This document shows positions 2,293 through 50,207 of a stretch of 64,000 nucleotides of DNA, in pieces. Within the stretch, counting starts at the first letter, position 1, and each line of letters opens with the position of its first letter. This DNA is from Hypanus sabinus (Eukaryota): the NCBI RefSeq assembly GCF_030144855.1, contig NC_082707.1, positions 84,754,001-84,818,000 on the forward strand. The letters are read 5' to 3'. Both the position numbers and the translations under genes were made by a program. The notes beneath the pieces are model-generated. The model did not search any database. It was not told the DNA's origin and worked only from the letters and a program-made list of their open reading frames with translations.

Positions 2293-5200
2293 TAGAAACA
2301 TAGAAAACCTGCGGCACAATACAGACCCTTCAACGCACAAAGCTGTGCCGAACATGTCCTTACCCTAGAACAGGGGTGGGCAAACTTTTTGACTTGTGGG
2401 CCACAAAGGGTTCTAAAATTTGACAGGGGGGCCAGACCAGGAGCAGATGGACGGAGTGTTTTGGTAATACACCTCATAAGAGAAAATAAAATATCATGGG
2501 ATATGTAAAAAACATGTGCTTTAATTTCAATTGAAAATGAACAAATGCATTACAACAAAATATCTGTCTTTGAAGTCCCACGGTATTCAGCTATTTATTG
2601 AAATGTCTTTTAAAACACTGAAAATTAAATGAATAAAATATTTTTTAATAGTAACAGTTATTATTTTAAAGCACTGAAAATTCTGTTATCCTTCAAGATA
2701 TTATCATCATCACTCTCCTCCTGACTGTCTTTATTTCAAAAACGGTAGGAGATGCAGGTCTACTTGTCCTGCTCCTTCTTATTCAATTGTCCCCTGTGCC
2801 AAAACTCAACAACAACCAGCACAAGGACAGAACAGTGACAGCGCGCCAGTATGCGGAGCGCTTTATTTGATCTGGAGCGCATTTTTTATTTTGAGAACGT
2901 ACGTGCACCTGCGCACTACTCATGTCCATCACTTAACAGAAATGACATGTAACATGTAAGGCTTATTGAAAAAAAATATTTTCAAATGCATTTTTTACAT
3001 AACACAACGAAGAAACTTATTTTTAATTTCAGTGGGAACAGTGTTGTTGGTCTCCCTTTTTAGCCAGCGCATCAAAGTCTGGATTTAGTTTTGTTGTAGC
3101 GATTCTCAGGATGGATCTGAGGTGTTGGTCAGTTAACTTGGATCTGTGGCTGGCTTTGTTGATGTTCATGACGCTGAACACCTGTTCACACAAACAGGTC
3201 GAGCCGAACAAAGAGTAAAGCGCAAATGTGGAGTAATACGCTGCACCTCAACAAAGGTCAATGTATATAGAGTGCGTCATCTATTGGGAAAACGCCAGAA
3301 TTGCGGGGAAAAAACGTTAACAAGGTTTATTAATATAATTTCATCAAGTTCTGCAGGCCGGATTAAAAAGCTTAACGGGCCGCATATGGCCCCCGGGCCG
3401 TAGTTTGCCCATGCCTGCCCTAGAACTACCCAGATTTACCCATAGCCCCCTATTTTTCTAAGCTCCATGTACCTATCCAGGAGTCTCTTAAAAGACCCTA
3501 TCGTATCTGCCTCTACCGCCGCCGCTGGCAGCCCATTCCAGGCACTCACCCTCTCTGCGTAAAACACTTACCCCGACATCTCCTCTGTACCTACTTCCAA
3601 GTACCTTAAAACTATGCCCTCTCGTGCTAGCCATTTCAGCCCTGGGAAAAAGCCTCTGATAATCCACAAATCATTTACAACATCATTGTAAATCTCCACT
3701 GCACCGTTTCTATGGTTTCCATATCCTTCCTGTAGTGACGAGACCAGAATTGAGCTGCAACATTACCGCTCGGCTCTTAAACTCAATCCCACAGTTGACG
3801 AAGGCCAATGCACCGTAACCCTTCTTAACCACAGAGTCAACCTGCGTAGCAGCTTCGCGTGTCCTATGGACTCCGACCCCAAGATCCTTCTGATCCTCCA
3901 CACTGCCAAGAGTCTTACCATTAATGCTATATTCTGCCATCATATTTGACCTACCAAAATGAACCATCTCACACTTATCTGGGTTGAACTCCATCTGCCA
4001 CTTATCAGCCCAGTTTTGCATCCTATCAATGTCCTGCTATAACCTCTGACAGCCCTCCACACTATCCACAACACCTCCAATCTTTGCGTCATCAGGAAAT
4101 TTACTTCCACTTAGTCATCCAGGTAATTTATATAAATTATGAAGAGTAGGGGCCCCAAAACAGATCCCCGAGGCACACCACTGGTCACTGACCTCCATGC
4201 AGAATATAACCCGTCTACAACCACTCTTTGCCTTCTGTGGGCAAGCCAGTTCTGGATCCACAAAGCAATGTTCCCTTGGATCCCATGCCTCCTTACTTTC
4301 CTCAATAAGCCTCGCATGGGGTACCTTATCAAATGCCTTGCTGAAATCTACATACACTACATCTAATGCTCTACCTTCATCAATGTGTTTAGTCACATCC
4401 TCAAAAATTTCAATCGGACTTGTAAGGCATGACTTGCCTTTGACAAAGCAATGCTGACTATTCCTAATCATATTATGCCTCTCCAAATGTTCAGAAATCC
4501 TGCCTCTCAGGATTTTCTCCATCAACTTACCAACCACTGAAGTAAGACTCACTGGCCCATAATTTCCTGGGCTATCCCTACTCCCTTTCTTGAATAAGGG
4601 AACAACATCCACAGCCCTCCAATCCTCCAAAAGCTCTCCCATTCTCATTGATGATGCATAGATCATTGCCAGAGGCTCAGTAATCTCTTTCCTCACTTCC
4701 CACAGTAGCCAGGGGTACACCCCATCCAGTCCCAGAGACTTATCCAACTTGATGGTTTCCAAAAGCTCCAGCACATTCTCTTCCTTAATATCTACATGCG
4801 CAAGCTTTTCAGTCTGCTGTAAATCATCCCTACAATCACCAAGATCCTTTTCTGCAGTGAATATTGAAGGAAAGTATTCATTAAGTACCTCTGCTATTTC
4901 CTCCAGTTCCATACACACTTTTCCACTGTCACACTTGATTGGTCCTATTTTCTCACGTCTTATCCTCTTGCTCTTCACATTCTTGTAGAATGCCTTGGGG
5001 TTTTCCTTAATCCTGTCTGCCAAGGCCTTCTCGTGGCCCCTTCTGGCTTTCCTAATTTCATTCTTAAGCTCCTTCCTGCTAGACTTATAACCTTCTAGAT
5101 CTCTATCATTATCTAGCTTTTTGAACTTTTCATAAGCTCTTCTTTTCCTCTTGACTAGATTTACAACACCCTTTGTACACCACGGTTCCTGTACCCTCCC

Positions 5201-11234: not shown

Positions 11235-13950
11235 TTTGAATAGTAGCCAGGATGTGAGATACAACTTACAATAGGAAAAAGGAAAGGTATACTGGGAAAA
11301 TCAGGTTGGTTCTTGACTCCAAGAGAAAGAATTTATAGAATAAGTACAAGATGACTTTTTAGGGCAGCTTGGGTCATGCCCACCTGGTAAAAAACAATTC
11401 TGGATTTGATCAGGGAGCTTAAGGTAAAGAAAGCTTGAAGAGACAGAGATCATAATAGGAGAGAATTCACCCTACATTTCAGAGGGAAGAGGATATATTA
11501 GTATAGTAAAGCAAAGCTAACTACAGGGGCAAGAACGATCAGCCGACCAAAGTTGATTACAAGGGGGGTCCCAGCAAAGATGATAGTAGAGCAGCAATAG
11601 CAGGCGTAATTCAGAAGATGTAGAATTATTTCATCCCAAAGAATCAGCAGTAGCAGCATTCTAAATAGAGTAAAAGGAAACAGTGGCCAACAAGAGAAGG
11701 CAAAGATAGCATAAAATCTAGAGAAGACACACAACATTTCAAAACTGAACAGGAAACTAAAGGATTGGGAAGCTTTTTAAAAACAACAGAAGGAAACTAA
11801 AACAAAGCAAAAAGGGAGAAAGGATGAAAATGAAAATAAGCTGGCCAATAATATAAAGCATACCAAAAGTATCTTTTTCAGATATATAAAGAGCACTGGA
11901 AAATGACACTGAAGTAGAAATGGGGGAAAACAGAGAAACAGAAAAACTGATAATATTGCGAGAGACCACATTGTGGAAGACACCAGAAAAAGTGCCAGCT
12001 GTTCCAGAGGATCAGGTGGAGAAGTGAGTGCAGTTACCATTACTAAAGAGAAGCTGAAATGTGAAAATGGATCAGTCACCTGGACTGAATGGACTCCATC
12101 TTAAGGTTCTGAAAGAAAATCTGAAGAGATTGTGGAGGCATTAGTAGTGATCTTTCTAAAAATCACTATAATCTCCAGGAGTTGTTTCAGAGGAATGCAA
12201 AATTGCTAAGTGTCACTCCACTCTTTTAAGGGATGGAGGCAGAAGTTGTAGACCAGTTAGCCTGACCTCAGTGGTTGGCAAGGGTAAGAGTCTATTACTT
12301 AGAATAAAGCTTTGAGATACTTGAAAACACATGATAAAATAGGCCAAAGTCAGCATGGTTTTGTGTTGGGGAAATCTTGCCTAACAAATCTGTTGGAATT
12401 CTTTGAGGAAATAACAGGCAGGTTAAATAAAGGAGTCAGCTAATGTTTGCCGGGATTTTCAGAAAGCCTTTGATGAGGTGACACACAAGTGATAAACAAG
12501 GAAAGCTGCTAGGATGGATAGAAGATTAGGTGACAGGCAGTGGGAATAAAGGTGGCCTTTTCTTGCTGGTTGTCAGTGACTAGTAGTTTTACCCAGGGGT
12601 CTTTGCTAGGTCCATTACTTTTCATATTATATGCCAGTGATCTAGATGACGAAGTTCACAGTTTGCAGATGATACAAAGATAGGTGAAGGGGCAGGTTTT
12701 GTTGTGAAAGCAGGGAGTCTGCAGAAGGACCTGGACAGATTAACAGAATTGGCAAAGTGGCAGATGGAATACAACATAGGGAACCATACACTTTGGTCAA
12801 AGGAGTAAAAGCAATAGACAATTTTCTAAATGGGGAAAGCATTCAGAAATCAGAGGCGAAATGGAACTTCGGAATCCTAACACAAACGAGAGTATCTGCA
12901 GATGCTGGAAATCCGTGCAACAAACAGAAAATGCAGGAGGAAATCAGCAGTTCTTGTGCAAGATTTTCTAAAGGTTAACTTACAGACTGAATCAATAGTA
13001 TGGAAGGGAAATAAATGTTAGCATTCATTTAAAGAGGATGAAGATATAAAAGCACTGATATAATTCTATAAAGCCTATCCTTATATGACACTAGCCAGAT
13101 CACATTTGGAGTACTATGAGAAGTTTAAGGCTCCATGTCTAAGAAAGGATATGCTGGCACTAGACAGGGCCCAGAGGAGGTCTACAAGAATGATCCTAGG
13201 GTTGTAAGGGTTAATGCATGAAGAATGTTTGATGGCTCTAGTTCTGTACTAAAGTACTCTGAAGGATGAGGGGGTTCTCACTGAAACCTACTGACTATTG
13301 AAGGGCCTGGATACAATGGATGGGGAGAGGATGTTTCACGTAGTGGGGAGGTCTAGCACCATAGAGCAGAGTTTGTCTCCCATCCATTCCATAATGTACT
13401 GGTTAGGCACAGGAGTACGTTCAGCCAGAGACTCATTCCACCGAGGTGTAACACTGAGCATCATAGGAAGTCATTCCTGCCTGTGGCATTCAAACTTTAC
13501 AACTCCTCCCCCAGAGTCAGACACCCTGAGCCAATAAGCTGGTCTTATTTCCATTTGGAATAATTTACTTATTATTATTTAATTATTTATGGTTTTATAT
13601 TGCTATATTTCTGCACTATTCTTGGTTGGTGCGACTGTAACAAAACCCAGTTTCCCTTGGGATCAATAAAGTATGTCTGTCAGTTTCAGAATAAAAGGGC
13701 ATCCCTTTGAATAGAGATGAGGAGGAATTTCTTTAGTCAGAGGGTAGTGAATTTATGGAATTCATTGGCATAGACAGCTGTGGAGTTAAGTCATTGGGTA
13801 TATTTAAAACAGAGGTCAATAAGTTCTTGATTAGCAAGGGTGTCAAAGGTTTCAAGAAGGCAAGAGAATGGAATTGAGAGTGAAAATATATCAGCCATAA
13901 GATAGTGAATCACTCAATGGGCCAAATGGTCTCCTATGCCTTATGTCACT
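11235..13950 (+). mobile_element. Old CR1 LINE ORF2, heavily decayed, with nested Penelope-end and Rex1 fragments
   Basis: Recognisable CR1 pieces (SQHGF..GKSCLTNLLEFFEE, FADDTKIG, RRNFFSQRVVNLWNSL) among many stops. Confidence 0.8.
13372..13681 (+). mobile_element. Rex1/Babar LINE 3' fragment (same young family as 23361-24060)
   Basis: Closely matches 23745-24055 and ends CAATAAAGTATGTCTGTC. Confidence 0.85.
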
Positions 13951-20110: not shown

Positions 20111-20294
20111 TTGTTGATGTTTTACCATAGCTGTGTACGTGGCCCAAAGCAACACACACTGCATGCTGGAGGAACCCAGCAGGCCAGGCATTCTGGGCTG
20201 AGATTCTTCATCAGGACACAATGGAAGCAGTTTACCTCTGTGTGTTCTCCATCCGGTAGTTGACCAAATGAGAAGATCTCTTACTACCATACCA

Positions 20295-20530
20295 TAGTGA
20301 TAGGAACAATGCTTAACAGTACCAGCGATCCAGGTACAGTTCCCACTGCTGCCTGTAAGGAGTTTGTACGTTCTCCTCGTGACAGTATAAGTTTCTTCTG
20401 GGTGCTCTGGTTTTCCTCCACAGTCCAAAGACGTACTGATCGGTAGGTTACTTGGTCATTGTAAATTGACCCATGATTAGGCTAGGGTTAAATTACAGGC
20501 CCATCCATGCTGTATCTCAATAAATAAATA
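20295..20530 (+). mobile_element. tRNA-derived SINE (V-SINE/HE1-like core)
   Basis: Core GGGTGCTCTGGTTTTCCTCCACAGTCCAAAGACGTAC and A-rich tail. Related copies at about 27140-27450 (-), 34640-34800 (-), 46130-46390 (-) and 56110-56380 (+). Confidence 0.7.
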
Positions 20531-20677
20531 ATTAGAGTCAGTACCTATCAAAACTGGTCCTGTTGTATTTACTTGTTTTAGACATACATAATTATACTTG
20601 AGTGGATCTACCTTTCTGGATTTTAATTATTGATCTATCACAGTACAGTATTTGAGAATAGTGCTCTGAAGGATGTC

Positions 20678-21860
20678 CATAAGACTGTAAAATATAGGGT
20701 CAGAATTTGGCCATTTGGTCCATCGAATCTGCTCTGCCATTCCATGAAGGCTGATTTATAACCCCTCTCAATCCCATTCTCCTGCCTTTTCCCTGTAACC
20801 TTTGACACCCTGACTAGTAAGCAACTTACCAATCTCCACTTTAAATGACTTGGCAATGAATGCCACAGATTCACCATCCCCGGCTAAAGGGATTCCTCTG
20901 TTCTTAATGGACATCCCTCTATTCTGAGACTGGGCCCTCTGATCCTAGACTCGCCCACTATAGGAAACACTCCCAACACATCCATTCTACCTAGGCCTTT
21001 CAATATTCGATAGCTGTCAATGAGATCACCCCTCATTCTTCTGAACTCCTTTGAGTACAGGTCCAGAACCGTGAAACATTCCTCTTATATTAATTCTTTC
21101 ATTCCCAGAATTATTCTCGTGAACATCCTCTGGATCCTCACCAATGCCAGCATATCTTTCCTTCGATAAGGGACCCAACCCCAAACTGGTCAAAATGCCC
21201 CCAGTGTGGTCCGACCAATGCCTTATGAAGCCTCAGTATGACATCCTTGCTCCTATATTTTAGTCACCTCGAAATGAATGCTACTATTTCATTTGCCTTC
21301 CTTACCTACAAGATAACCTTTAGGGAATTCTGCACAAGGACTCCCAAATCCCTTTGCAACTTTGTGTTTTGAATTTTCATCCCACTTAGAACATAGTCTA
21401 TGCTTTTATTCCTTCAACCAAAGTGCATGACCATATATTTCCCGACACCATATTCCATCTGCCACTTCTTTGGCCGTTTCTCCAAGGAGTCTTAAGTCCT
21501 TCTGCAGACTCCCTACTTCCTCAATACTCCCTGCACCTCCACTGATCTTCAAATCTGATCACAAAGTCATCAATTCCATCATACAAATCACTGACAATGT
21601 GTAAAGAAATGGTCCCACCACTAATCTCTGAAATACTGTACCACTAGTCACCAGCAGCCAATCAGAAAAGGCCCCCTTTATTCTCACTTTTTGCCTCTTT
21701 CTGGTCAGCCAATCTTCTGTCCATGCTAGTATATTTTCTGTAATGTCTTGTTAAGTAGCCTAATGTGTGGCACCTTGTCAAGGCCTTCTGAAAATCAAGT
21801 AAACAACTTCCACTGACTCTCCTTTGTCCATCCTTCCTCTTATTTCCTCAACAGATTTGC
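20678..21860 (-). mobile_element. CR1 LINE RT 3' portion, decayed
   Basis: Reversed CR1 tail at 20678. The minus strand carries DFQKALDKVPH and WQMEY motifs. Confidence 0.8.
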
Positions 21861-21861
21861 C

Positions 21862-21985
21862 GGAAGGAAACTAGAGAAGTTAATGAATGGCATTCAGCTA
21901 GCAATGAAGCCCTGGACCTCAGACCTAACAAAATCTCTTGTTCTGCAAACTCGTGTTTCTCCAGAAATTGCTCTGTCATGCTAGA
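21862..21985 (+). mobile_element. Inverted, diverged second copy of a foamy-like pol connection segment
   Basis: Plus translation LEKLMNGIQLAMKPWTSDLTKSLVLQTRVSPEIAL aligns with minus LDKLMDAGQQAIDLQTKDLTKSLVLRIQVSPQTAV (22325-22435). GACCTAACAAAATCTCTTGTTCTGC is identical in both. Confidence 0.85.
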
Positions 21986-21991
21986 TTCGGT

Positions 21992-24200
21992 CATAGAGAA
22001 GATATATCTTCGATGACAGGTAAAGATTGTAAGTCGTAGCGCTCAGGAACATATTCCCACTTCAAGGTGTCGTCTTGTAAAAGTGTTTGCCATTTCCCAT
22101 ATCTAATTATGGTAGCTCTAAATATTGGTAATTTGCTAACATTTTTCAAAGCCCCATACACTGTATAATAATTGCTTTGTTCCCATGCAGTGGTCTGACT
22201 GCAATAAATGTATGGAATACCTTAGGGAGACATCATTCTGAGGCAGTACATTTCTGTTCTGTTGGGGTGAAATTATTTGAGGCATAGTGTGTAGGGGCTT
22301 TTGTTTCTTCTCCCTCATTATAACAGGTGGCACAGCAGTTTGTGGAGAAACTTGAATTCGCAGAACAAGAGATTTTGTTAGGTCTTTTGTCTGGAGGTCT
22401 ATTGCTTGCTGACCTGCATCCATCAATTTATCTAGTGCCTCACGATTATCTGAGGTAAAAACAAAATGTTTTTTGTTTCTTGGTGTACATCTGACAGATA
22501 CTAGTTTTGATAATTGAGCATAGTCAGGTATGAAAGCTCTAACATAATTCAATAGGCCCAGGGCTTTAAGGCCTTTGGATATCCTACTTGAGCAACTTTT
22601 GTCTAAACTTAGGGGTCCTTGATTGACATTTGTCATGCCTGGGAAATCTACTTCTGTACAAAGGAATTGAGATTTTTTATTGGTCATTCATAGCCTCTCT
22701 CTATCAAACTTTCAACCTTGACAGTACTGTACTGATATGTGTTAAGTGCTTATCCAGTGTGTCTGTCGACTGTGAAGTATACATCATCAGCTTACTCATA
22801 GATGTCTGGCATTCCTTGTAGAGTCTGAATGTCTCCTGTAAAAAATACCTGTTGACTATTCCAGAAACTCTTGTGAGTCTGACCCACTGTGAGTCGCAGC
22901 TGTTAAGGCTGAATAATGCCTGTCACTTTCTAAAAGTGGCTGTAACCACAAGCCATTGGCCAGATCTGTGCAAGATTTATACTATTTATGAGTCAATCCT
23001 GCTGCATATTTTGTAATATTTGTTGCTGGGCTGACTTTGGTTGTGTGTGTTTATTCAGGACCGTGCAGTCGATGACCAATCACCATCATCTAGTCAGCCT
23101 TTGCTACATTGAACATTGACAAGTTAAATCAAGAAGGTTCTTTTATCAAAGCACCTTGTCTACAGTTTCCTTTTTGGGATTGCTTTCCTCTATGGTCAGA
23201 AATATGCCATTATTTCTGACAAATCCAACAAGAAGCATCCGATGTTCCTATTAGAAGCGCTAGTCTACTACAGTCTGGGGCAAGCTAGTGTAAAAACTTT
23301 ACAGCTACTTCTTTTGTTTATTTAATCCCATATATTTGTACAAGAACTTTATAAGGTAGGCACCCCTGTTTCCATCCAAGGAGTAAGTGTGGACATGGTG
23401 GAGGATTACAAATACCTGGGGATACGAATGGACAATAAACTGGACTGGTCAAAGAACACTGAGGCTGTCTACAAGAAGGGTCAGAGCCGTCTCTATTTCC
23501 TGAGGAGACTGGGGTCCTTTAACATCTGCCGGACGATGCTGAGGATGTTCTACAAGGCTGTGGTGGCCAGTGCTATCATGTTTGCTGTTGTGTGCTGGGG
23601 CAGCAGGCTGAGGGTAGCAGACACCAACAGAATCAACAAACTCATTCGTAAGGCCAGTGATGTTGTGGGGGTGGAACTGGACTCTCTGATGGTGGTGTCT
23701 GAAAAGAGGATGCCGTCCAAGTTGCATGCCATCTTGGACAATGACTCCCATCCACTTCATAATGTATTGGTTAGGCACAGGAGTGCATTCAGCCAGAGAC
23801 ATTCCACCGAGATGTAACACTGAGCGTCATAGCAAGTCATTCCTGCCTGTGACCATCGAACTTTACAACTCCTCCCTCGGAATGTCAGACACCCTGAGCC
23901 AATAGGCTGGTACTGGACTTATTTCCACTTGGCATGATTAACTTATTATTATTTAATTATTTATGGTTTTATATTGCTATAGCTCTTCACCATTCTTGGT
24001 TGGTGCGGCTGTAATGAAACCCAATTTCCCTCGGGATCAATAAAGTATGTCTGTCTGTCTCTACTGTGTTTCAATATATGGCTACAGTTTTAATTCTCCC
24101 TATCATCTCTCCTAGTTTACTACCTTGAATAATAACAGGATTTAACACTGAAATGTCTGCACCTGTATCAAAGTGTTAAGGTCGGTCAGTGGAGTTTGGT
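21992..24200 (-). mobile_element. pol: Endogenous foamy-virus-like retrovirus pol relic (protease-RT-connection/tether), multiply disrupted
   Basis: FDTGADISVL (DTGA at 24169-24158); YKVLVQIYGIK..LLIGTSDASCW; RQGALIKEPS; LVIDCTVLNK; YKSCTDLANGLWLQPL; FTGDIQTLQGMPDIYE*ADDVYF (22794-22783); KKSQFLCTEVDFPG; LGLLNYVRAFIPDYAQL; YNEGEETKAPTHYASNNFTPTEQK; RYGKWQTLLQDDTLKWEY..DLQSLP. All are colinear with foamy virus Pol. Confidence 0.85.
23361..24060 (+). mobile_element. Young 5'-truncated Rex1/Babar LINE inserted in the retroviral protease
   Basis: VEDYKYLGIRMDNKLDW...KKGQSRLYFLRRL..FNIC..ML.MFY. Tail AATAAAGTA(TGTC)n. Confidence 0.92.
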
Positions 24201-25202
24201 CTGTCTAATCTGCACCCAGCCTCTGACTTGAAGAATAAAATATTCGTCATGTTCAACCTGAGGAGCAGTCAGGGTATCCCATATTTCTGCTACATTACTA
24301 ATACATTCATAATATTGACTAGCGTTTGCCTGTGCAACTGCTAGAAACCAGGATGTTTTTCCGCCTTATAGTACTAGGTAGAGTGTTGCAGCACTTGTCA
24401 AATTGGACTACTACTACATAGTAATTCTTTTGAAAATAATACATTTGGTCTAACATGACCTCAGGGTTTGCTGACTGCTAAATTCTAAACTCAAAAAATA
24501 AGACCTTAAGCCCTATAGCTATAGATTCCTTCACTAAAGAGAGGCCATTACCCAATCTTCAAGGACTCGTCCATTTCCCTGGTGCAGATGCAGGACTTCA
24601 GCCTGAAATGTCCACTGTTTATTCCTTTTCATAGATGCTGCCTGCCTTGCTGAGTTTTACTCTGGATTTCCAGCATCTGCAGAACCTCTTGTGTTTATAT
24701 ATAGTGAAATTAGTGCAAAAAATTGATTACACTAAAACTTCATTAATTGAGCACTTGGTAATGCTGAATGACAGATTTTCTGAACTATAGGATTCTGTAT
24801 TAATATCCAATTCATTTTCTTCAGATATTGTTATATTCTTTCTATCTGCAAGAAGTCTTCCTGGTAAGTTTAATGGGACTGTGGAAAATGAGACCCTGGT
24901 GAGTTTACAGGAAGCACTAAAATCTGGACTTTGGTGATTTTAAAGGATGGGTGGGATGGGAATCACTGAATATAAAAGGAGTGTGGATAGAAAGGCCTTG
25001 GTGGAATGAATGGTGGACATCAGGATATTTGAACAATGACAAGGTGGATTTTTTTCTGTAATCATTCATTTCAAACTATATCATTACATTTTGCTCTACA
25101 GGCTTGGATCTTCCAACCAGAACATTATTTCAGACCCTTCCTTCTATGCATGTTTGTTTCTTCATGGAAACAAACTTTGGAAGTATAAAGCAAAGTGTCT
25201 GT

Positions 25203-41860: not shown

Positions 41861-43426
41861 AGATGGCTGGCCCTAGGAAACTGCCCTGAAGAATTTCTGC
41901 ATTGATATCCTGGGACTGAGATAACTGATCTCAACCACAGCATCCTCCTTAATATAAGGTATTGCTTCAACCCTTGAGTACTTTCCTTTGCCCATTAACC
42001 TGTTTAATCAGGACTCCTTGATGTCACAGTTAGTAATACTGTCATGATATGAAAAGCATTGACCCTAATCTCTGCAATTCAGCTCCTTGGCCCATGATGG
42101 CACCAAGACTCTGGTTGGGTCTAGAGGTGAATACTCCCAATGAATCCCAGTCTGGGAACAATGAACAAATGAGTAGGTGCTGCTTGATGTTGCCATTGAT
42201 TACATCGCTTTTCTGATGATTGAGAATAGCTTGATTGGCTGTATTTAGCTGTCAGATTTGTCCTGCTTTTGTGAAGGGGACCTCCCTGAGCAGATTTTCA
42301 CATTCTTTGGTGGGTATCAATGTTGTATTTATACTGGAATAGCTTGGTTAAAGATTTACTACAGGTTTTTGTACCCTTTGCAGTACTCACTGCTCCGGTG
42401 AGAGCTCAGGAGCAAGCCAAGGTCGATCATCTACCCAGCATGTCCGGCTAGCCATGCTTATGAACACATCTCTTTTGTCATGTTTTTTTTGTCACGAGAC
42501 ATACCAGAGGACTATTGGGCCTATCAGGCTTATGCTGCCTTGAAGAGAAAACTGTTTTCTTACACATGACCATTAAAACCCCCAACTTTCCAGTTGCCTG
42601 CACATGGGACAGCTTGCAGTCAACAGTTAGATTAAATAATGTCTTTGGAATGTGAAAGGAAACCAGGGCACCTAGGGAAAGCCCAGAAGGTCACAAAGAG
42701 ATAGTAAAACTTCCATTCAGATAGCATCGGAGGTCAGAAATGAACCCAGCTTACAACTTTGAAATATCTGTCTTCCTTTCGTGATCTTGTGCCACACTTG
42801 AAATTCATCCTTTTGTTTAATTGTCATGGTTATGCAAGGTGAAACTGCAGGGCTATAATCTGGTTGTTGATTATGAAATCATATTCTGTCTATCGAGTGC
42901 TGTTTTTATTGTTTGGCAATCATTGTTTTGTGCTATAACTTCTCTAGGCTAGCACCTCATTTTTTAGTGCCTCTTCAGCATCTCCTACTGCACTCCTCAT
43001 TGACCAGGGTTGATCTCCTGCTTTGACAGTAATAGTAAGATCATGGAGATGCTGGGCCAAAGGACGACAGGTTATGGTAGTGTATATTGCTACTGCTACT
43101 GGTCCACTGAGCCTTATGGATTTTGAGCTACTTGAACAGTAATGCATTTAGATGGGATTCTGACTGAAAGGTTTTCAGTCATAAGCCCACTGATGATAGC
43201 TTTTCACCATTGGCACATCAGACACACACGTACATCAAAAGTACAAACCTGCATGAGTCCTTAACTCAATAAAGTCTCGTAGCATCAGGTCAACCATTGC
43301 AAGGAAATGTCTGAATTACTACCTCCCATCTTTATCCAGCTGATGAATTCTCTATGTTGAAGAATATTGGCAAGGGGCACTATGCATTCTGGCTGAGGAT
43401 TTCAATGTGCATCACCAAATGTGCCT

Positions 43427-44808
43427 TGGAGGCACCATCACCAGTCTCTGAGTTAGATGATGGAGGCACCATCACCAGTCTCTGAGTTAGATGATGGAGG
43501 CATCATCACCAGTCTCTGAGTTAGATGATGGAGGCATCATCACCAATTCTGAGTTAGATGATGGAGGCACCATCACCAGTCTCTGAGTTAGATGATGGAG
43601 GCATCATCACCAGTCTCTGAGTTAGATGATGGAGGCATCATCACCAGTCTCTGAGTTAGATGATGGAGGCATCATCACCAATTCTGAGTTAGATGATGGA
43701 GGCACCATCACCAGTCTCTGAGTTAGATGATGGAGGCATCATCACCAGTCTCTGAGTTAGATGATGGAGGCACCATCACCAATTCTGAGTTAGATGATGG
43801 AGGCATCATCACCAGTCTCTGAGTTAGATGATGGAGGCATCATCACCAGTCTCTGAGTTAGATGATGGAGGCATCATCACCAGTCTCTGAGTTAGATGAT
43901 GGAGGCATCATCACCAGTCTCTGAGTTAGATGATGGAGGCATCATCACCAATTCTGAATTAGATGATGGAGGCATCATCACCAATTCTGAGTTAGATGAT
44001 GGAGGCACCATCACCAGTCTCTGAGTTAGATGATGGAGGCACCATCACCAGTCTCTGAGTTAGATGATGGAGGCACCATCATCAATTCTGAGTTAGATGA
44101 TGGAGGCATCATCACCAGTCTCTGAGTTAGATGATGGAGGCACCATCACCAATTCTGAGTTAGATGATGGAGGCATCATCACCAGTCTCTGAGTTAGATG
44201 ATGGAGGCATCATCACCAGTCTCTGAGTTAGATGATGGAGGCATCATCACCAGTCTCTGAGTTAGATGATGGAGGCATCATCACCAGTCTCTGAGTTAGA
44301 TGATGGAGGCATCATCACCAATTCTGAATTAGATGATGGAGGCATCATCACCAATTCTGAGTTAGATGATGGAGGCACCATCACCAGTCTCTGAGTTAGA
44401 TGATGGAGGCACCATCACCAGTCTCTGAGTTAGATGATGGAGGCACCATCATCAATTCTGAGTTAGATGATGGAGGCATCATCACCAGTCTCTGAGTTAG
44501 ATGATGGAGGCACCATCACCAATTCTGAGTTAGATGATGGAGGCATCATCACCAGTCTCTGAGTTAGATGATGGAGGCATCATCACCAATCTCTGAGTTA
44601 GATGATGGAGGCATCATCACCAGTCTCTGAGTTAGATGATGGAGGCATCATCAACAGTCTCTGAGTTAGATGATGGAGGCACCATCACCAGTCTCTGAGT
44701 TAGATGATGGAGGCATCATCACCAATCTCTGAGTTAGATGATGGAGGCATCATCACCAGTCTCTGAGTTAGATGATGGAGGCATCATCACCAATTCTGAG
44801 TTAGATGA
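43427..44808. repeat. Minisatellite, 41 units of 33/34 bp (TGGAGGCAYCATCACCAGTCTCTGAGTTAGATGA)
   Basis: Units counted by hand, head-to-tail with no spacers. Units 10-20 are repeated as units 21-31 (370-bp period). Confidence 0.97.
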
Positions 44809-46932
44809 ATCTCGAGGAATATGGACAGCAGACTGGGTCTGCAGCAGAGTGAATCATACAAGGGTTAAATCCACCTGACTTCTTAGTCAGTAATCTACCC
44901 AAGGGAGATGTCTGGGTGCTTGAAGGCACGGGTAGAAATGCTGATAAAAATTCCATCTTCACATTAAGGAAAGCCTCCATAATTTATGGTATGATAATTA
45001 TGCTAAATGATATAATATGTGTTTCTTTCCCTCCTGTGTGACTCCTTTGGGTAGGTCTGTCCTGCTGGTGCGATAAGTCACACTGAAGGATTGTGTTGGA
45101 GTGGGACAGATATGTTCCATGAGTATGACAATAACAAATGGTTCAATTTAATAACAGAGAATGTATACATTATGAAACCTGAAATGCTTAGTCTTCACAG
45201 ACATCCACAAAACAAGAAACCACAAAGAATAAATGACAGAAACCGCAGAACCCCAAAGGCCCCCAGTTGTTCGACCAGTTGAAGGGAATGCCTTTGCTAA
45301 TTTAGGCACCCGTTGCCAAATATTAACGATATGGACTTACCTCATATTATCAGGGGTGGGGGAGAAGTTGCAGTGGGAGTGAAAGGTTCCCTGGCACTGA
45401 GTACAGTCTTTTAGATCTCCACTGGTTTTGCACACTCCACATCTGGGGTTGAGTATCTCATTTTCACTGGTCTGCAGCAACATCTGGAGCGAAACATTAA
45501 AAAAAGTGTACTCTCTTACTTGAAGGGTTGTTCAGAAGTGGGTGGCCTTGGCCAATCTGTGTTTTCTTCAGTTAGTAATTCCTTTTTCAATACAAAGCAT
45601 ACTTTTTATCTTGACACCCAAGCAATAATTGCTATTTACTTATTTTAAAACTTCATAGTATAAAACAGAATGGGCTGATGACAGCAATCAGCCAGATAAC
45701 TTACTTGGACTCCAGCTGTGCTTTGTGATTGTTGACTCTTCTCAGGCCCTGCAGATAATGCGATTCGAGTGTCACCATCTTTTTTTGCACAGGAGAAACA
45801 TCTCCAGGTACCTCTGGGCAGACAAAGAAGCCAAAATCAATAGGTGACAAACCAAAGCTATCTGAACTAAGAAGATCCAGCTCTATTCAAAATGCATTGT
45901 TTTTAATCTATTACATTTTTAAAGATTAAATATGAGAATCTTCAAGAAATTATTTAAATTGGCTCATTGCCTGTTCTGGCAGATGTGAATGAGACAGAAC
46001 GAGGCCTTGTCTGCCCTTACAGGTTGATGTAAATAATCTCAGTGTTCAGATTAAACTAATGTCTCCTGATAAACTAGTCATTATTTATCTTTTGTATTCA
46101 GCCCAATTAAACTGATCCTTTGTTTCATTTTATTTATTTGTTTGTTTATTAGTTTCTATGTTTATTTATTTAGATTTACAGGATGGAATAGGCCCTTCTG
46201 GCCCTCCGAGCTGCACCAACAACAACCCACCAACTTAACCTTACTAACCGGTACATGTTTTGACTGTGGGAGGAAACTGGAGCACCCAAAGGAAACTCAG
46301 CATTCCACGGTGGGGGGGGGGTGTGGAGGGGGAGGGGGGGGCATGTGGGGAGGGAGACACACAAATCCCTTACAGAGGTCTCTGGGATTCAACCAGATTG
46401 AACATTTTCTTCAAGAACTGCGATGATTCCATTTGGGGAATTATCCTTTGGTTCTGTACCGGAACTTAAGTGACGCTATCAGCAACTTAAATAGCATACA
46501 CTGTTATAAACAGTGAATGCATTGAAAAATTCATTGTGAAGTCCCACCAAAGACTTTTCAATGGTTGTAAGGTAACAAAGCAATCTCACATCTTCCTTCG
46601 ATTACCTCTACCCTTTTTCTGAAATCACACTTTCCTAGTACAGCTACGTACTATTCTGGCACCCTACTGTGTGGCCATTCCTTGTATGTGGTAACTGCAT
46701 GGTATTGAACAGTATAGCCCAGGCATGGGCAAACTACGGCCCGCGAGCCATATGCGGCCCGTTAAACTTTTTAATCCGGCCCGCAGAACTTGATGAAATA
46801 ATATTAATAAACCTTGTTAACGTTTTTTCCCCGCAATTCTGGCGTTTTCCCAATAGATGACGCACTCTATATACATTGACCTCTGTTGAGGTGCAGCGTA
46901 TTACTCCACATTTGCGCTTTGCTTTGTGACCT

Positions 46933-47169
46933 TGTGGCAACCCATTTCCTGGCACATCCGAACCGGCTCACAATTAGCCAGCGTTCCGGCTAAGGGAAAT
47001 AGCCTGCGGGGATTTGCGAGCACAGAGCTTTGGAGCCTCTGCGCCACGGGGGGCAGGTTGAGGGATGCTTAAAAGTGAGGCTGGGGATTTCGAATAAAGT
47101 TTTTTTCCTTTGACTGCAGTTACTGACTCCGTGTCATAATTTTAGCGCTGCGTGTAGCACACCGCTACA
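46933..47169 (+). mobile_element. Solo LTR (237 bp, probably Gypsy-type) nested in the hAT 5' region
   Basis: TGTGGC...GCTACA termini, 4-bp TSD ACCT (46929-46932, 47170-47173), TATA-like CTTAAAAG near 47068 and AATAAA near 47093. Confidence 0.8.
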
Positions 47170-47191
47170 ACCTCTCACCCCTTCTGTAAAG

Positions 47192-48997
47192 ATGAGTGGA
47201 GCTAAGAAAAGAAAAGTGGATAGAAAATGTCGGGTGTTTAATAAGCAGTGGACAACTAAATATCTTTTTACCGAACACAGATCAACTGCTGTATGCCTGA
47301 TATGCCAAGAGACTGTGGCGGTTTTTAAAGAATATAATATCAGCCGTCACTTTGCCACAAAACATGCCAACTACGCTAGCAACCAGTCAACGAAAGAACG
47401 GGAAGCTAATGCTCAGAGGTTGGCAGCTAATTTACAGGCTCAACAAAATTTTTTTCACCGTCAAACTGCCATTCATGAGTCAAGTACCAAGGCGAGTTTT
47501 ATGCTGTCATTCAAATTAGCAAAGGCCAGCAAGCCTCTGTCTGAAGGCGAGTTTTTAAAAGAATGTATGGTGGAGACAGCAGGTGTATTGTGTCCGGAGA
47601 GCAAAGACAAATTTGAAAAAATCAGTTTATCACGCAGAACAGTGACTCGCGGTGTGGAACTGATAGATGAAGATATAACCAGTGACTTAAATAAAAAGGC
47701 AGAGTCGTTCACGTTATATTCATTAGCACTGGATGAAAGCAACGATGTAAAAGACACTGCTCAGCTCCTCATTTTTATCAGAGGAATTAACAATACTTTT
47801 AAAATAACGGAGGAGTTTTTGACAATGGAGTCTCTGAAAGGAAAAACACCGGGAGAGGACTTGTATGACCGGGTGTCTGCTGTCATCGAAAATATGAAGC
47901 TCCCTTGGAGTAAACTTATCAACGTCACCACAGATGGATCTCCTAATTTGACGGGGGGAAAATGTCGGCCTGCTGAGGAGAATACAGAATAAAGTGAAAG
48001 ATGAAAATCCTGACCAGGATGTTATTTTCCTTCACTGCATCATCCACCAGGAATCTCTATGTCAATCGGTATTACAGCTGAATCATGTTGTGAATCCTGT
48101 AGTAAAACTTGTCAACTTTATACGTGCAAGGGGACTTCAGCACCGTCCGTTCATCACGTTCCTGGAGGAAACTGATGCGGATCACCAGGACCTACTTTAT
48201 CACTCCGGTGGCCGCTGGTTAAGTTTGGGCAAAGTGTTTCAACGAGTATGGGAGCTCAAAGAGGAGATCGGTGCATTTTTGGAGTTACTGAGGAAGGCCG
48301 GCGAATTTCCTGAGCTGAGCAACAAGAGCTGGCTTTGTGACTTTGCGTTTGCTGTAGATATATTTTCACACATGAATGAACTGAACGTGAAGCTACAGGG
48401 GAAGGATCCGTTTGTGCATGACATGTGCACAAACGTGAAAGCCTTTAAATCCAAGCTGGCTTTTTTTCTCCAGGCAAATTTCGAATAAGTTATTCACTCA
48501 TTTTCCCACACTAGCCACGCTGGAAGAGGCCGGCGCAAATGTGAAAAAATACAGCGAGTCACTGGATGCACAGAGAATTCTGCCGTCGCTTTTCTGATTT
48601 TGAAAAAATTGACAAGTCACTTCAGTTGGTGGCCTGTCCCCTGTCACAAGATCCTGAAACAGCACCAGAGGAGCTACGGCTGGAACTGATCGACTTTCAG
48701 TCTGACCCCGTCTTAAAAGAGAAGTTCAACTCTCTTAAACTGAATGACTTTTATGCTTCACTTGGTAAAGAGGTGTTTCCAAACCTCCGGAGGACGGCAC
48801 AGAAAATGCTGGCGTTGTTCGGCTCGACCTATTTGTGTGAACAGGCGTTCAGCGTCATGAACATCAACAAAGCCAGCCACAGATCCAAGTTAACTGACCA
48901 ACACCTCAGATCCATCCTGAGAATCGCCACAACAAAACTAAATCCAGACTTTGATGCGCTGGCTAAAAAGGGAGACCAACAACACTGTTCCCACTGA
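47192..48997 (+). pseudogene. hAT transposase, about 600 codons, broken by about three frameshifts
   Basis: BED-type zinc finger CLIC..RHFATKH; LALDESND; TTDGSPNL; HCIIH; RWLSLG; FGSTYLCEQAFS. Breaks near 47955, 48465 and 48565. Confidence 0.95.
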
Positions 48998-50207
48998 AAT
49001 TAAAAATAAGTTTGTGGAATGTAAAAAATGCATTTGAAAATATTTTTTTCAATAAGCCTTACATGTTACATGTCATTTCTGTTAAGTGATGGACATGAGT
49101 AGTGTGCAGGTGCACGTACGTTCTCAAAATAAAAAACGCGCTCCGTATACTGGCGCGCTCTCATTGTGCGGGTCGTTGTTGAGTTTTGGCACAGGGGACA
49201 ATTGAATAAGAAGGAGCAGGACAAGTAGACCTGCATCTCCTACCGTTTTCGAAATAAAGACAGTCAGGAGGAGAGTAATGATGATAATATCTTGAAGGAT
49301 AACAGAATTTTCAGTTCTTTAAAATAATAACTGTTACTATTTTAAAAAAGCTGTATTTTATTCATTTAATTTTCAGTGTTTTAAAAGTCATTTCAATAAA
49401 TAGCTAAATACCATGGGACTTAAAAGAGATATTTTGTTGTAATGCATTTGTTCATTGTCAATTGAAATTAAAGCACATGTTTTCTACATATCCCATGATA
49501 TTTTATTTTCTCTTATGAGGTGTATTACCAAAACACTCCGTCCATCTGCTCCTGGTCCGGCCCCCCTGTCAAATTTTAGAACCCTTTGTGGCCCTCAAGT
49601 CAAAAAGTTTGCCCACCCCTGGTATAGCCTAATCCTAGGCTAGTACAGTGTCTATCAATACATTTTTAGAAGTCACAATTAATTTTCAACCAATGATATA
49701 CTTCTGAAATACAGCAACAGATGCATGCCTAGCAAAATCCCACGAAGAAAACCTATATATATTAGCAAGATAGCCATGTTCTGAACATTGGACAAGAATT
49801 AGGCAGCATATGAGGAAGAAATTAACTGCTTTGAACTGCAGTAGTTAGATCTTTTCAATTCACCTCAGGGAATGGACATGACCTTTATTTATCTAAAGGA
49901 TAACATCTCTGACAATGAAACACATGTGCTGCATTGCACTGAAGTCAAATTTATGTGCTTAAGTTCCTGTGGTAGGCTTTGTAGCTTATGCTCCAGAGAT
50001 GCTGATCAACAAAGCCCTGGTTAGATATGAAAATCAGTTGAAGCCACATCTTCTCGTTCTATCAGATGTAGGATTCCTGAATCAGCAAGTGATGTAGAAA
50101 TTAATTTGTTTCTGTTGCCTGGAACAAGTACTGTATGGCCTTGTCTGATCATTTATTATTTAATGATTCTATGAGGTGATGTGCTGGTTCTACAATCCTT
50201 ATACTTA

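What the first reader, a model, noticed from the sequence alone, without database searches (positions are those of the whole stretch)
21992..24200. Endogenous foamy-virus-like retrovirus hidden across frameshifts
Seen: stitched minus frames give, in order, protease (FDTGADISVL...LLIGTSDASCW), RT (RQGALIKEPS, LVIDCTVLNK..SAQQQ, YKSCTDLANGLWLQPL, FTGDIQTLQGMPDIYE*ADDVYF), thumb (LGLLNYVRAFIPDYAQL) and connection (YNEGEETKAPTHYASNNFTPTEQK, RATIIRYGKWQTLLQDDTLKWEYVPERYDLQSLP). Knowledge: simian/prototype foamy Pol reads YKTTLDLxNGFWAHPI, FTADVVDLLKEIPNVQxYVDDIY, LGLLNFARNFIPN, YYNEGSKRPIMY and RWITWMTYLEDPRIQFHYDKxLPEL, with near-identical spacing. The degenerate tether fits a retrovirus rather than a Gypsy element. 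Foamy-like ERVs are described from few cartilaginous fishes, so this may be an undescribed deep lineage. The ORF track shows only one 183-aa piece.
Basis: partly seen in the sequence, partly recalled or inferred. Interest (0 to 1): 0.85.

Follow-up and report, generated by a model that had tools for sequence, protein, structure and literature searches.

The report
Ancient ray foamy virus, gag-deleted copy
This is a broken fossil copy of a foamy virus in what is likely a ray genome, one of dozens of old copies, many of which share the same internal deletions and so likely spread by borrowing missing proteins from other copies; the virus lineage itself is probably already described.

Summary
Confirmed. 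All 11 motifs lie on the minus strand, and the pieces map in order onto feline foamy virus (FFV) Pol. The locus is one decayed copy of a family of at least 65 loci in a 4.04-Gb genome, likely of a ray. The family has ~1.1-kb TG..CA LTRs, a tRNA-Lys primer site, 4-bp target duplications, a gag-length region, PR-RT-tether-RNase H-integrase and an env-length region. Its RT groups with tetrapod-type foamy viruses, apart from teleost and chimaera foamy-like ERVs, the probable lokiretroviruses and Gypsy. LTR pairs differ by 18-28%, roughly 100-250 Myr; four related organisms hold the same locus. New here: the window copy and about 14 others share one gag deletion that joins the Gag start in frame to protease (10 of 13 keep the frame), while 16 other copies share a 215-nt deletion of the RT core; none has both. 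These non-autonomous classes likely spread in trans. The window copy is dead and lacks integrase, env and the 3' LTR. A 2023 paper on cartilaginous-fish endogenous foamy virus exists but could not be read, so 'undescribed deep lineage' is doubtful.

The parts
24466..24560 (-). last ~95 nt of the 5' LTR; the LTR's terminal CA and the first part of the primer site are lost in this copy (24-nt gap)
   Evidence: alignment with 7 other 5' and 4 3' LTR ends; 84% match to a 3' LTR
24190..24465 (-). leader and first ~90 codons of the gag-position reading frame
   Evidence: matches the stretch that follows the primer site in gag-long copies; no significant match to a known Gag
24176..24192 (-). gag/protease deletion junction at a short direct repeat; ~1.5-1.7 kb of gag missing; frame kept
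24061..24175 (-). protease N-terminal part with DTG motif
   Evidence: homologous to the protease start of gag-long copies; no Pfam match
23361..24060 (+). later LINE-fragment insertion splitting the protease
   Evidence: PF09004 hit E 5e-11; 87% copy at 13374-13687; very high contig depth
22690..23360 (-). protease C-terminal part and RT palm/fingers, broken by frameshifts and stops, one stop inside the catalytic motif
22331..22687 (-). RT thumb and start of connection (in-frame part of the 183-aa ORF)
   Evidence: PDB foamy Pol E 3.6e-6
21980..22340 (-). connection/tether (degenerate RNase H-like) domain, frameshifted
   Evidence: weak PF17919/PF17917 hits; FFV Pol 471 and 540
21870..21978 (+). 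inverted 109-nt copy of 22328-22436 at the edge of the insert
   Evidence: (I12, 76%)
20677..21869 (-). later CR1-type LINE insertion between tether and RNase H
   Evidence: matches dispersed repeats in other loci; CR1 label recalled from its translation
20203..20676 (-). RNase H remnants (20590-20676, 20526-20586, 20203-20287), interrupted by a deletion and a short repeat; the element ends here
   Evidence: 78-85% matches to the RNase H region of two other copies, nothing further 3' in the window; that region hits FFV Pol 634-717 in other copies

Best explanation
The locus is a dead, 3'-truncated copy of an old endogenous foamy virus family of what is likely a ray, belonging to a gag-deleted class that likely arose by template switching at a short direct repeat and likely spread by being packaged with Gag made by other copies. 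SHOWN: foamy-type pol, LTR/PBS/target-duplication anatomy of the family, a shared gag junction with the frame kept, a second shared 215-nt RT-core deletion in gag-bearing copies, a star-like copy tree, presence in four related organisms. INFERRED: a foamy virus entered the germ line roughly 100-250 Myr ago and amplified in one burst; reverse transcriptase jumped between 9-nt repeats to make the deletions; the deleted RNAs kept the 5' leader/gag start and the 3' half of pol, where prototype foamy virus keeps its packaging signals, so they could be mobilised in trans; the gag-deleted RNA would have made Pol as a short Gag-Pol fusion from the gag start; co-packaging and recombination would explain why the classes are enriched on, but not confined to, two branches. 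After insertion the copy decayed neutrally and took two LINE insertions.
For: RT: a natural single-frame stretch of another copy hits foamy Pol at E 5e-45 against 9e-8 (8r0s, 'enzymatic polyprotein'), 5e-7 (Ty3) and 2e-4 (MLV); best of 1.84 billion representatives is FFV Pol, 35%. IQ-TREE, 42 rows: inside the foamy/foamy-like clade (99/98), in a 6-row branch with FFV, an unnamed Gag-Pol, an S. torazame protein and two Pleurodeles proteins (96/85). Integrase stretch: the 8 significant PDB hits are foamy integrase entries, E 7.6e-7 to 3e-6. Window copy is 70-81% identical to 39 other loci. LTRs TG..CA with purine tract; primer site matches the host tRNA-Lys(CTT) end over 15 nt in 18 loci; 4-bp flanks match 3 of 4 bases in 3 of 3 loci with both edges readable. 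Gag junction: 8 of 41 long loci, 10 of 40 hits to the junction query, frame kept in 10 of 13 aligned. RT-core deletion: 16 of 40 loci at one junction, 14 intact there, 2 other, 8 not scorable; 0 of 8 gag-deleted copies carry it; a 9-nt repeat lies at both ends. Copy tree star-like, median end branch 0.14. PFV packaging signals lie in the 5' UTR and 3' pol (PMC3705302 passages); in-frame PFV Gag-Pol fusions work if processed (PMC3196705 abstract); IAP 1-delta-1 is a precedent (PMC6466679 passage).
Against: Neither deletion class is one clade on the thumb-RNase H tree: gag-deleted needs 7 changes (243 of 500 shuffles as low), RT-deleted 10 (34 of 500); only 1 of 36 inner branches is well supported. 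The class-by-branch skew (13/16 against 2/8, Fisher p 0.021) rests on non-independent copies. Gag and Env were not confirmed by homology: no PDB hit, no genome hit for PF03539 or PF03408, one PF03408 hit at E 0.038 that was lost when the piece was extended and in 12 other copies. The primer site matches 15 of 18 nt, never the last three, and the 18 loci were picked by a 9-of-15 filter. The junction lies only ~5 codons before the protease DTG, so the fused protease may not have worked; PFV fusions with truncated Gag lose infectivity. Copies were found with the window's own RT-connection or gag-start DNA, so retention of those parts is partly selected. Placement within the tetrapod-type branch rests on one long-branched row and one mammalian virus.
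Confidence: 0.75

Rival explanations
1. The shared deletions arose many times independently, during reverse transcription of full-length helper genomes or after insertion, because the short repeats are hot spots; the deleted classes never replicated as lineages.
For: Both junctions sit on short direct repeats; classes are not monophyletic.
Against: Same junction to within a few bases in 13-15 and in 16 loci, while env-region deletions have scattered ends; about 12 RT-deleted copies also share a second, protease deletion, and one copy has only the first, as a stepwise lineage would give; no copy has both gag and RT-core deletions.
Confidence: 0.15
2. The gag-deleted and pol-dead classes were an obligate complementing pair: one supplied Pol as a Gag-Pol fusion, the other Gag, and they spread together without full-length helper.
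For: Mutually exclusive, reciprocal losses; frame kept at the gag junction in 10 of 13, whereas the RT-core deletion of 215 nt breaks the pol frame; same apparent age; crossing of classes over the one supported branch suggests co-packaging.
Against: Copies with both gag and RT core exist at the same depth (C1, C18, C33b, L045) and could have served both classes; one deletion in three is in frame by chance; three weakly shared frameshift bins (3 of 8 copies each) appear in the RT of gag-deleted copies.
Confidence: 0.2
3. The element is a lokiretrovirus, a fish-type foamy-like ERV or a Gypsy element with convergent similarity.
For: Gag, protease and Env do not reach foamy Pfam models; fish foamy-like ERVs also use tRNA-Lys (PMC5512871 passage); the RT-c piece scores alike against several lineages.
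Against: RT tree separates it from the teleost/Callorhinchus branch, from the clade sister to all retroviruses (probable loki, label inferred) and from Gypsy outgroups; integrase best matches PFV, and tetrapod/coelacanth foamy integrases form their own group (PMC7947760 passage).
Confidence: 0.04
4. The locus was co-opted by the host and is kept by selection.
For: Held at ~97-98% identity in four other organisms.
Against: Differences in the element (27 in 1118 nt) are like those in the flank (17 plus 11 gaps in 836 nt) in run X6; stops, frameshifts and two LINE insertions disrupt pol.
Confidence: 0.02

Closest known systems
Cartilaginous fish endogenous foamy virus (Wang, Chen, Cui 2023, J Virol 97:e0181622)
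   Same: By title (reference entries): a true foamy virus lineage in cartilaginous fish at the root of vertebrate foamy viruses, which is where this RT falls. That it covers sharks and rays is recalled.
   Different: Not testable: text and sequences not held. Whether this host, this family or its deletion classes were covered is unknown.
Mammalian foamy viruses (FFV Pol QER92069; PFV and marmoset FV Pol structures 7ksf, 7o0h; PFV integrase)
   Same: Pol order PR-RT-tether-RNase H-IN, colinear spacing, 35% RT identity, tRNA-Lys primer site after a 2-nt spacer, 4-bp target duplication (the foamy value of 4 bp and the virus names for the PDB codes are recalled).
   Different: Gag, protease and Env too diverged or decayed for the foamy Pfam models; 15-nt primer match; dozens of germ-line copies; a natural Gag-start/Pol fusion class, whereas foamy Pol comes from a spliced mRNA.
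CmiFLERV and teleost foamy-like ERVs (PMC5512871); ERV-Spuma.0-Sca (PMC10699275)
   Same: Foamy-like ERVs of fishes; complementation in trans was suggested for AciFLERV/AliFLERV from copy number.
   Different: Different branch: the Callorhinchus protein XP_007889123, S. torazame GCB70404 and teleost proteins group apart; ERV-Spuma.0-Sca is reported to group with the teleost elements.
Mouse IAP 1-delta-1
   Same: Internal deletion making an in-frame Gag-Pol fusion, non-autonomous, spread in trans (PMC6466679 passage).
   Different: Betaretrovirus-like and still active; loses part of gag and pol, while this class loses most of gag and keeps pol from the protease motif on.

Membership tests
Foamy viruses (Spumaretrovirinae-like ERV) | RT groups with foamy viruses | tested here: met
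   (99/98 for the foamy clade; 96/85 for the branch with FFV); tested on a sister copy, window tied to it by 71% DNA identity over 1260 nt
Foamy viruses (Spumaretrovirinae-like ERV) | Degenerate tether followed by a second RNase H, then integrase | tested here: met
   integrase in other copies, absent from the window copy
Foamy viruses (Spumaretrovirinae-like ERV) | Foamy-type integrase | tested here: met
   8 of 8 significant PDB hits are foamy integrase entries
Foamy viruses (Spumaretrovirinae-like ERV) | Paired LTRs, tRNA-Lys primer site, 4-bp target duplication | tested here: met
   10 loci with both LTRs; 15-of-18-nt primer match in 18 loci; 3 of 3 readable flanks; window copy keeps only an LTR remnant
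Foamy viruses (Spumaretrovirinae-like ERV) | A9-type protease | tested here: inconclusive
   DTG motif at the pol start; PF03539 no match
Foamy viruses (Spumaretrovirinae-like ERV) | Foamy Gag (no Cys-His box, GR-rich end) | tested here: inconclusive
   gag-length region of ~1.9 kb in gag-long copies; no Pfam or PDB hit; E 0.37-0.40 to the Gag part of P0002
Foamy viruses (Spumaretrovirinae-like ERV) | Foamy Env with leader peptide; accessory genes before the 3' LTR | tested here: inconclusive
   ~3.7 kb shared region between integrase and 3' LTR with an early and a late hydrophobic stretch seen by eye; PF03408 E 0.038 once, not repeated; PDB negative
Foamy viruses (Spumaretrovirinae-like ERV) | Pol made from a spliced mRNA; internal promoter; late reverse transcription | not testable with these tools
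   fossil copies only
Cartilaginous fish endogenous foamy virus (Wang 2023) | Sequence grouping with the published elements | not testable with these tools
   paper and sequences not held
Fish-type foamy-like ERVs (teleost FLERV, CmiFLERV) | RT in the teleost/Callorhinchus branch | tested here: not met
Lokiretrovirus | RT sister to all other retroviruses | tested here: not met
   a separate 100/100 clade holds that place; its loki label is inferred, no named loki sequence was in the tree
Ty3/Gypsy (Metaviridae) | RT in Metaviridae; single RNase H | tested here: not met

The most novel reading that the evidence does not exclude
A tetrapod-type foamy virus amplified in the ray germ line as two reciprocal defective classes, one making Pol as a natural Gag-Pol fusion and one making only Gag, which complemented and recombined with each other over 100 Myr ago: a natural split foamy vector system, and the first fossil case of foamy Pol escaping its spliced-mRNA rule.
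Probability: 0.2. Interest if true: 0.65.

Novelty: new member of a known kind. Interest (0 to 1): 0.4.

Why it matters
It adds a dated, multi-copy ray family to the branch that carries the deep history of true foamy viruses, with orthologous loci that can calibrate it against host phylogeny. The shared deletions show which parts of a Mesozoic foamy genome could be lost while the RNA still spread, and they spare the same regions that hold the packaging signals of modern foamy viruses. A natural in-frame Gag-start/Pol join bears on why foamy viruses express Pol separately. The window copy itself has no sign of function.

Tried and rejected
Word-index protein searches with the 183-aa ORF and with the RT stretch found nothing among longer proteins (weak). 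Genome searches with PF03539 and PF03408 gave no match (controls silent, so no proof of absence). Pfam on whole frames of env, pol and gag regions gave only RVT_1. PDB searches for Env and Gag were negative; the atlas search for Env gave no result, so Env identity stays open. A tight LTR-end/primer-site pattern found only 2 loci, both decayed. The mixture-model tree of 137 rows did not finish; FastTree and a 42-row LG+G4 tree were used; 14 of 150 hits were dropped for short RT cover and 96 more for size. Splicing as the cause of the gag junction was rejected: the join lies in a direct repeat, not at GT..AG ends. Papers: Wang 2023 and Chen 2021 (PMC8223930) not held. Ten literature searches showed no account of ray foamy ERV deletion classes, but the library lacks the key paper and its supplements. 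No earlier scan finding matched.

Full report
OBSERVATION. Ten natural single-frame pieces were aligned one by one to six reference proteins: against FFV Pol 5 of 10 beat all 100 shuffles and 7 fall in colinear order; the gag and protease pieces do not score. The element is longer than reported: an LTR remnant at ~24560-24466, leader and gag start, protease split by a LINE fragment (23361-24060), RT, thumb, tether, a CR1-type insert (20677-21978), and RNase H remnants ending at ~20203. No integrase, env or 3' LTR sequence was found further on in the window.

HOST. The window is G000:C16:84754001-84818000 of a 4.04-Gb genome. A LINE ORF in the window has Hypanus sabinus as best named hit (88%), so the host is likely a ray; this is inference.

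FAMILY. The RT-connection DNA finds 40 scored loci of 278 candidates at 70-81% identity; the gag-start DNA finds 40 of 197. I examined 41 loci with long flanks (one, L101, looks like an assembly duplicate of L085) and 25 further short ones, 65 distinct in all. LTRs are ~1.1 kb, begin TG, end CA and follow a purine tract. After a 2-nt spacer comes a site matching the first 15 of 18 nt expected from the host's tRNA-Lys(CTT), with most mismatches at CpG positions and 0 of 18 loci matching positions 16-18; loci were picked by a 9-of-15 filter. Four-base flanks agree in 3 of 4 letters in the 3 loci where both edges were readable. FFV Pol aligns along RT, tether, RNase H and integrase across copies; an integrase stretch has only foamy integrase entries as significant PDB hits. 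About 1.9 kb before pol and 3.7 kb after it are shared between copies, the places of gag and env; homology to foamy Gag or Env was not shown. Every copy whose frames I printed or aligned is broken.

PLACEMENT. A natural single-frame RT stretch of a sister copy (L025:6237-7148, stops as X) hits foamy Pol at E 5e-45, Ty3 at 5e-7, MLV at 2e-4. Among 1.84 billion representatives the best hit is FFV Pol (35%); the highest identity among the 150 listed is 36%, so no close intact relative showed up there. FastTree on 137 rows and IQ-TREE on 42 rows agree: the family is inside the foamy/foamy-like clade (99/98) and in a branch with FFV, an unnamed 1687-aa Gag-Pol, S. torazame GCB66461 and two Pleurodeles proteins (96/85), apart from the branch of Callorhinchus XP_007889123, S. 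torazame GCB70404 and teleost proteins, from the epsilon-containing group (WEHV1), from a clade sister to all retroviruses (probably loki; label inferred) and from Gypsy-type outgroups. The row has a long end branch (1.06) and only one mammalian virus was present.

AGE. Ten LTR pairs differ by K2P 0.18-0.28 (0.15-0.25 without CpG; BLAST segments of 223-860 nt, biased low). With the 0.5e-9 rate assumed for catshark in PMC10699275 (passage) this is 180-280 Myr; at twice the rate 90-140 Myr. The copy tree is star-like, median end branch 0.14, window 0.11. Contigs of four other coded organisms lie on the locus at ~97-98% and bridge the element/insert edges (e.g. X6: 22297-23413, 27 differences; 21799-22102 in X5, X6, X8), though none spans the whole stretch. 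Divergence in element and flank is alike, so no constraint is seen.

DELETION CLASSES. In 8 of 41 long loci, the window among them, the gag start joins the protease directly, where four other copies have 1.5-2.2 kb between; 10 of 40 hits to the junction query run through it, 7 of them new. Of 13 copies aligned across the join, 10 keep the frame. The join lies in a short repeat present at both ends in gag-long copies, not at splice ends. A second class keeps gag but lacks 215 nt of the RT core between two 9-nt repeats: 16 of 40 loci, against 14 intact, 2 other, 8 unscorable; none of the 8 gag-deleted copies has it. Seven copies by anchor test, about 12 by mapping, also lack the protease and RT start at a shared point, and one has only the RT-core loss. 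Env-region deletions have scattered ends. On the thumb-RNase H tree one branch is supported (96/98): 13 of 16 RT-deleted but 2 of 8 gag-deleted copies lie on one side (Fisher p 0.021); neither class is a clade.

MECHANISM. Best reading (0.75): germ-line invasion, one burst of amplification, template-switch deletions in a few progenitors, spread of the deleted RNAs in trans, then neutral decay. Both classes keep the 5' leader and 3' pol, where PFV packaging signals lie (PMC3705302 passages). The gag-deleted RNA would make Pol from the gag start; PFV tolerates processed in-frame fusions but loses infectivity with truncated Gag (PMC3196705 abstract and outline); IAP 1-delta-1 is the precedent (PMC6466679 passages). 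Rivals: repeated hot-spot deletion (0.15); an obligate complementing pair, a stronger form of the best reading (0.2); non-foamy element (0.04); co-option (0.02).

KNOWN OR NEW. Foamy-like ERVs of cartilaginous fish are in print: CmiFLERV (PMC5512871 passages), ERV-Spuma.0-Sca (PMC10699275, first quarter and passages), and a 2023 J Virol paper on a cartilaginous-fish endogenous foamy virus at the root of vertebrate foamy viruses, seen only as a reference entry in PMC10581153, PMC11468914 and PMC12386078. I put the odds that this family belongs to that lineage at about 70%; it could not be tested. PMC7947760 was read as passages. Ten searches showed no description of the deletion classes, but the key paper and its supplements are outside the library. 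Verdict: real feature, new member of a known kind, interest 0.4; the reciprocal deletion classes are the part worth following.

Noticed in passing
window 21870-21978 and 22328-22436: A 109-nt inverted copy of part of the connection region sits at the edge of the CR1 insert (76% complementary); contigs of three other organisms run across it, so it is old.
   Followed up: partly
P0002: Unnamed 1687-aa protein on a 10,956-nt public contig: a single Gag-Pol reading frame with foamy-type RT that groups with FFV; a foamy-like element with an uninterrupted Gag-Pol frame, source unknown.
   Followed up: partly
P0007, Scyliorhinus torazame GCB66461: Gene model annotated as PR-domain protein 11 that begins with foamy-type RT-connection sequence and groups with FFV (98/85); a chimeric model or an exonised foamy ERV; best summed match to the window copy.
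   Followed up: partly
primer sites of 18 loci: Complementarity to tRNA-Lys stops after 15 nt in every copy; the next three letters are shared and differ from the tRNA.
   Followed up: no
L085 and L101 (C17:102.18 Mb, C1823): Identical copy structure on a chromosome and a small contig; likely an assembly duplicate.
   Followed up: no
L071, L045, L073, C18: Rearranged copies: inverted gag block in L071, shuffled gag/RT order in L045, repeated PR-RT piece in L073, inverted RT and LTR pieces behind C18.
   Followed up: no
window 43380-44859: Tandem array of ~34-nt units with higher-order 67- and 370-nt repeats.
   Followed up: no
window 2360-3422 and 46715-49632: Inverted pair of segments at 91-98% identity about 45 kb apart; likely two young copies of one repeat.
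   Followed up: no
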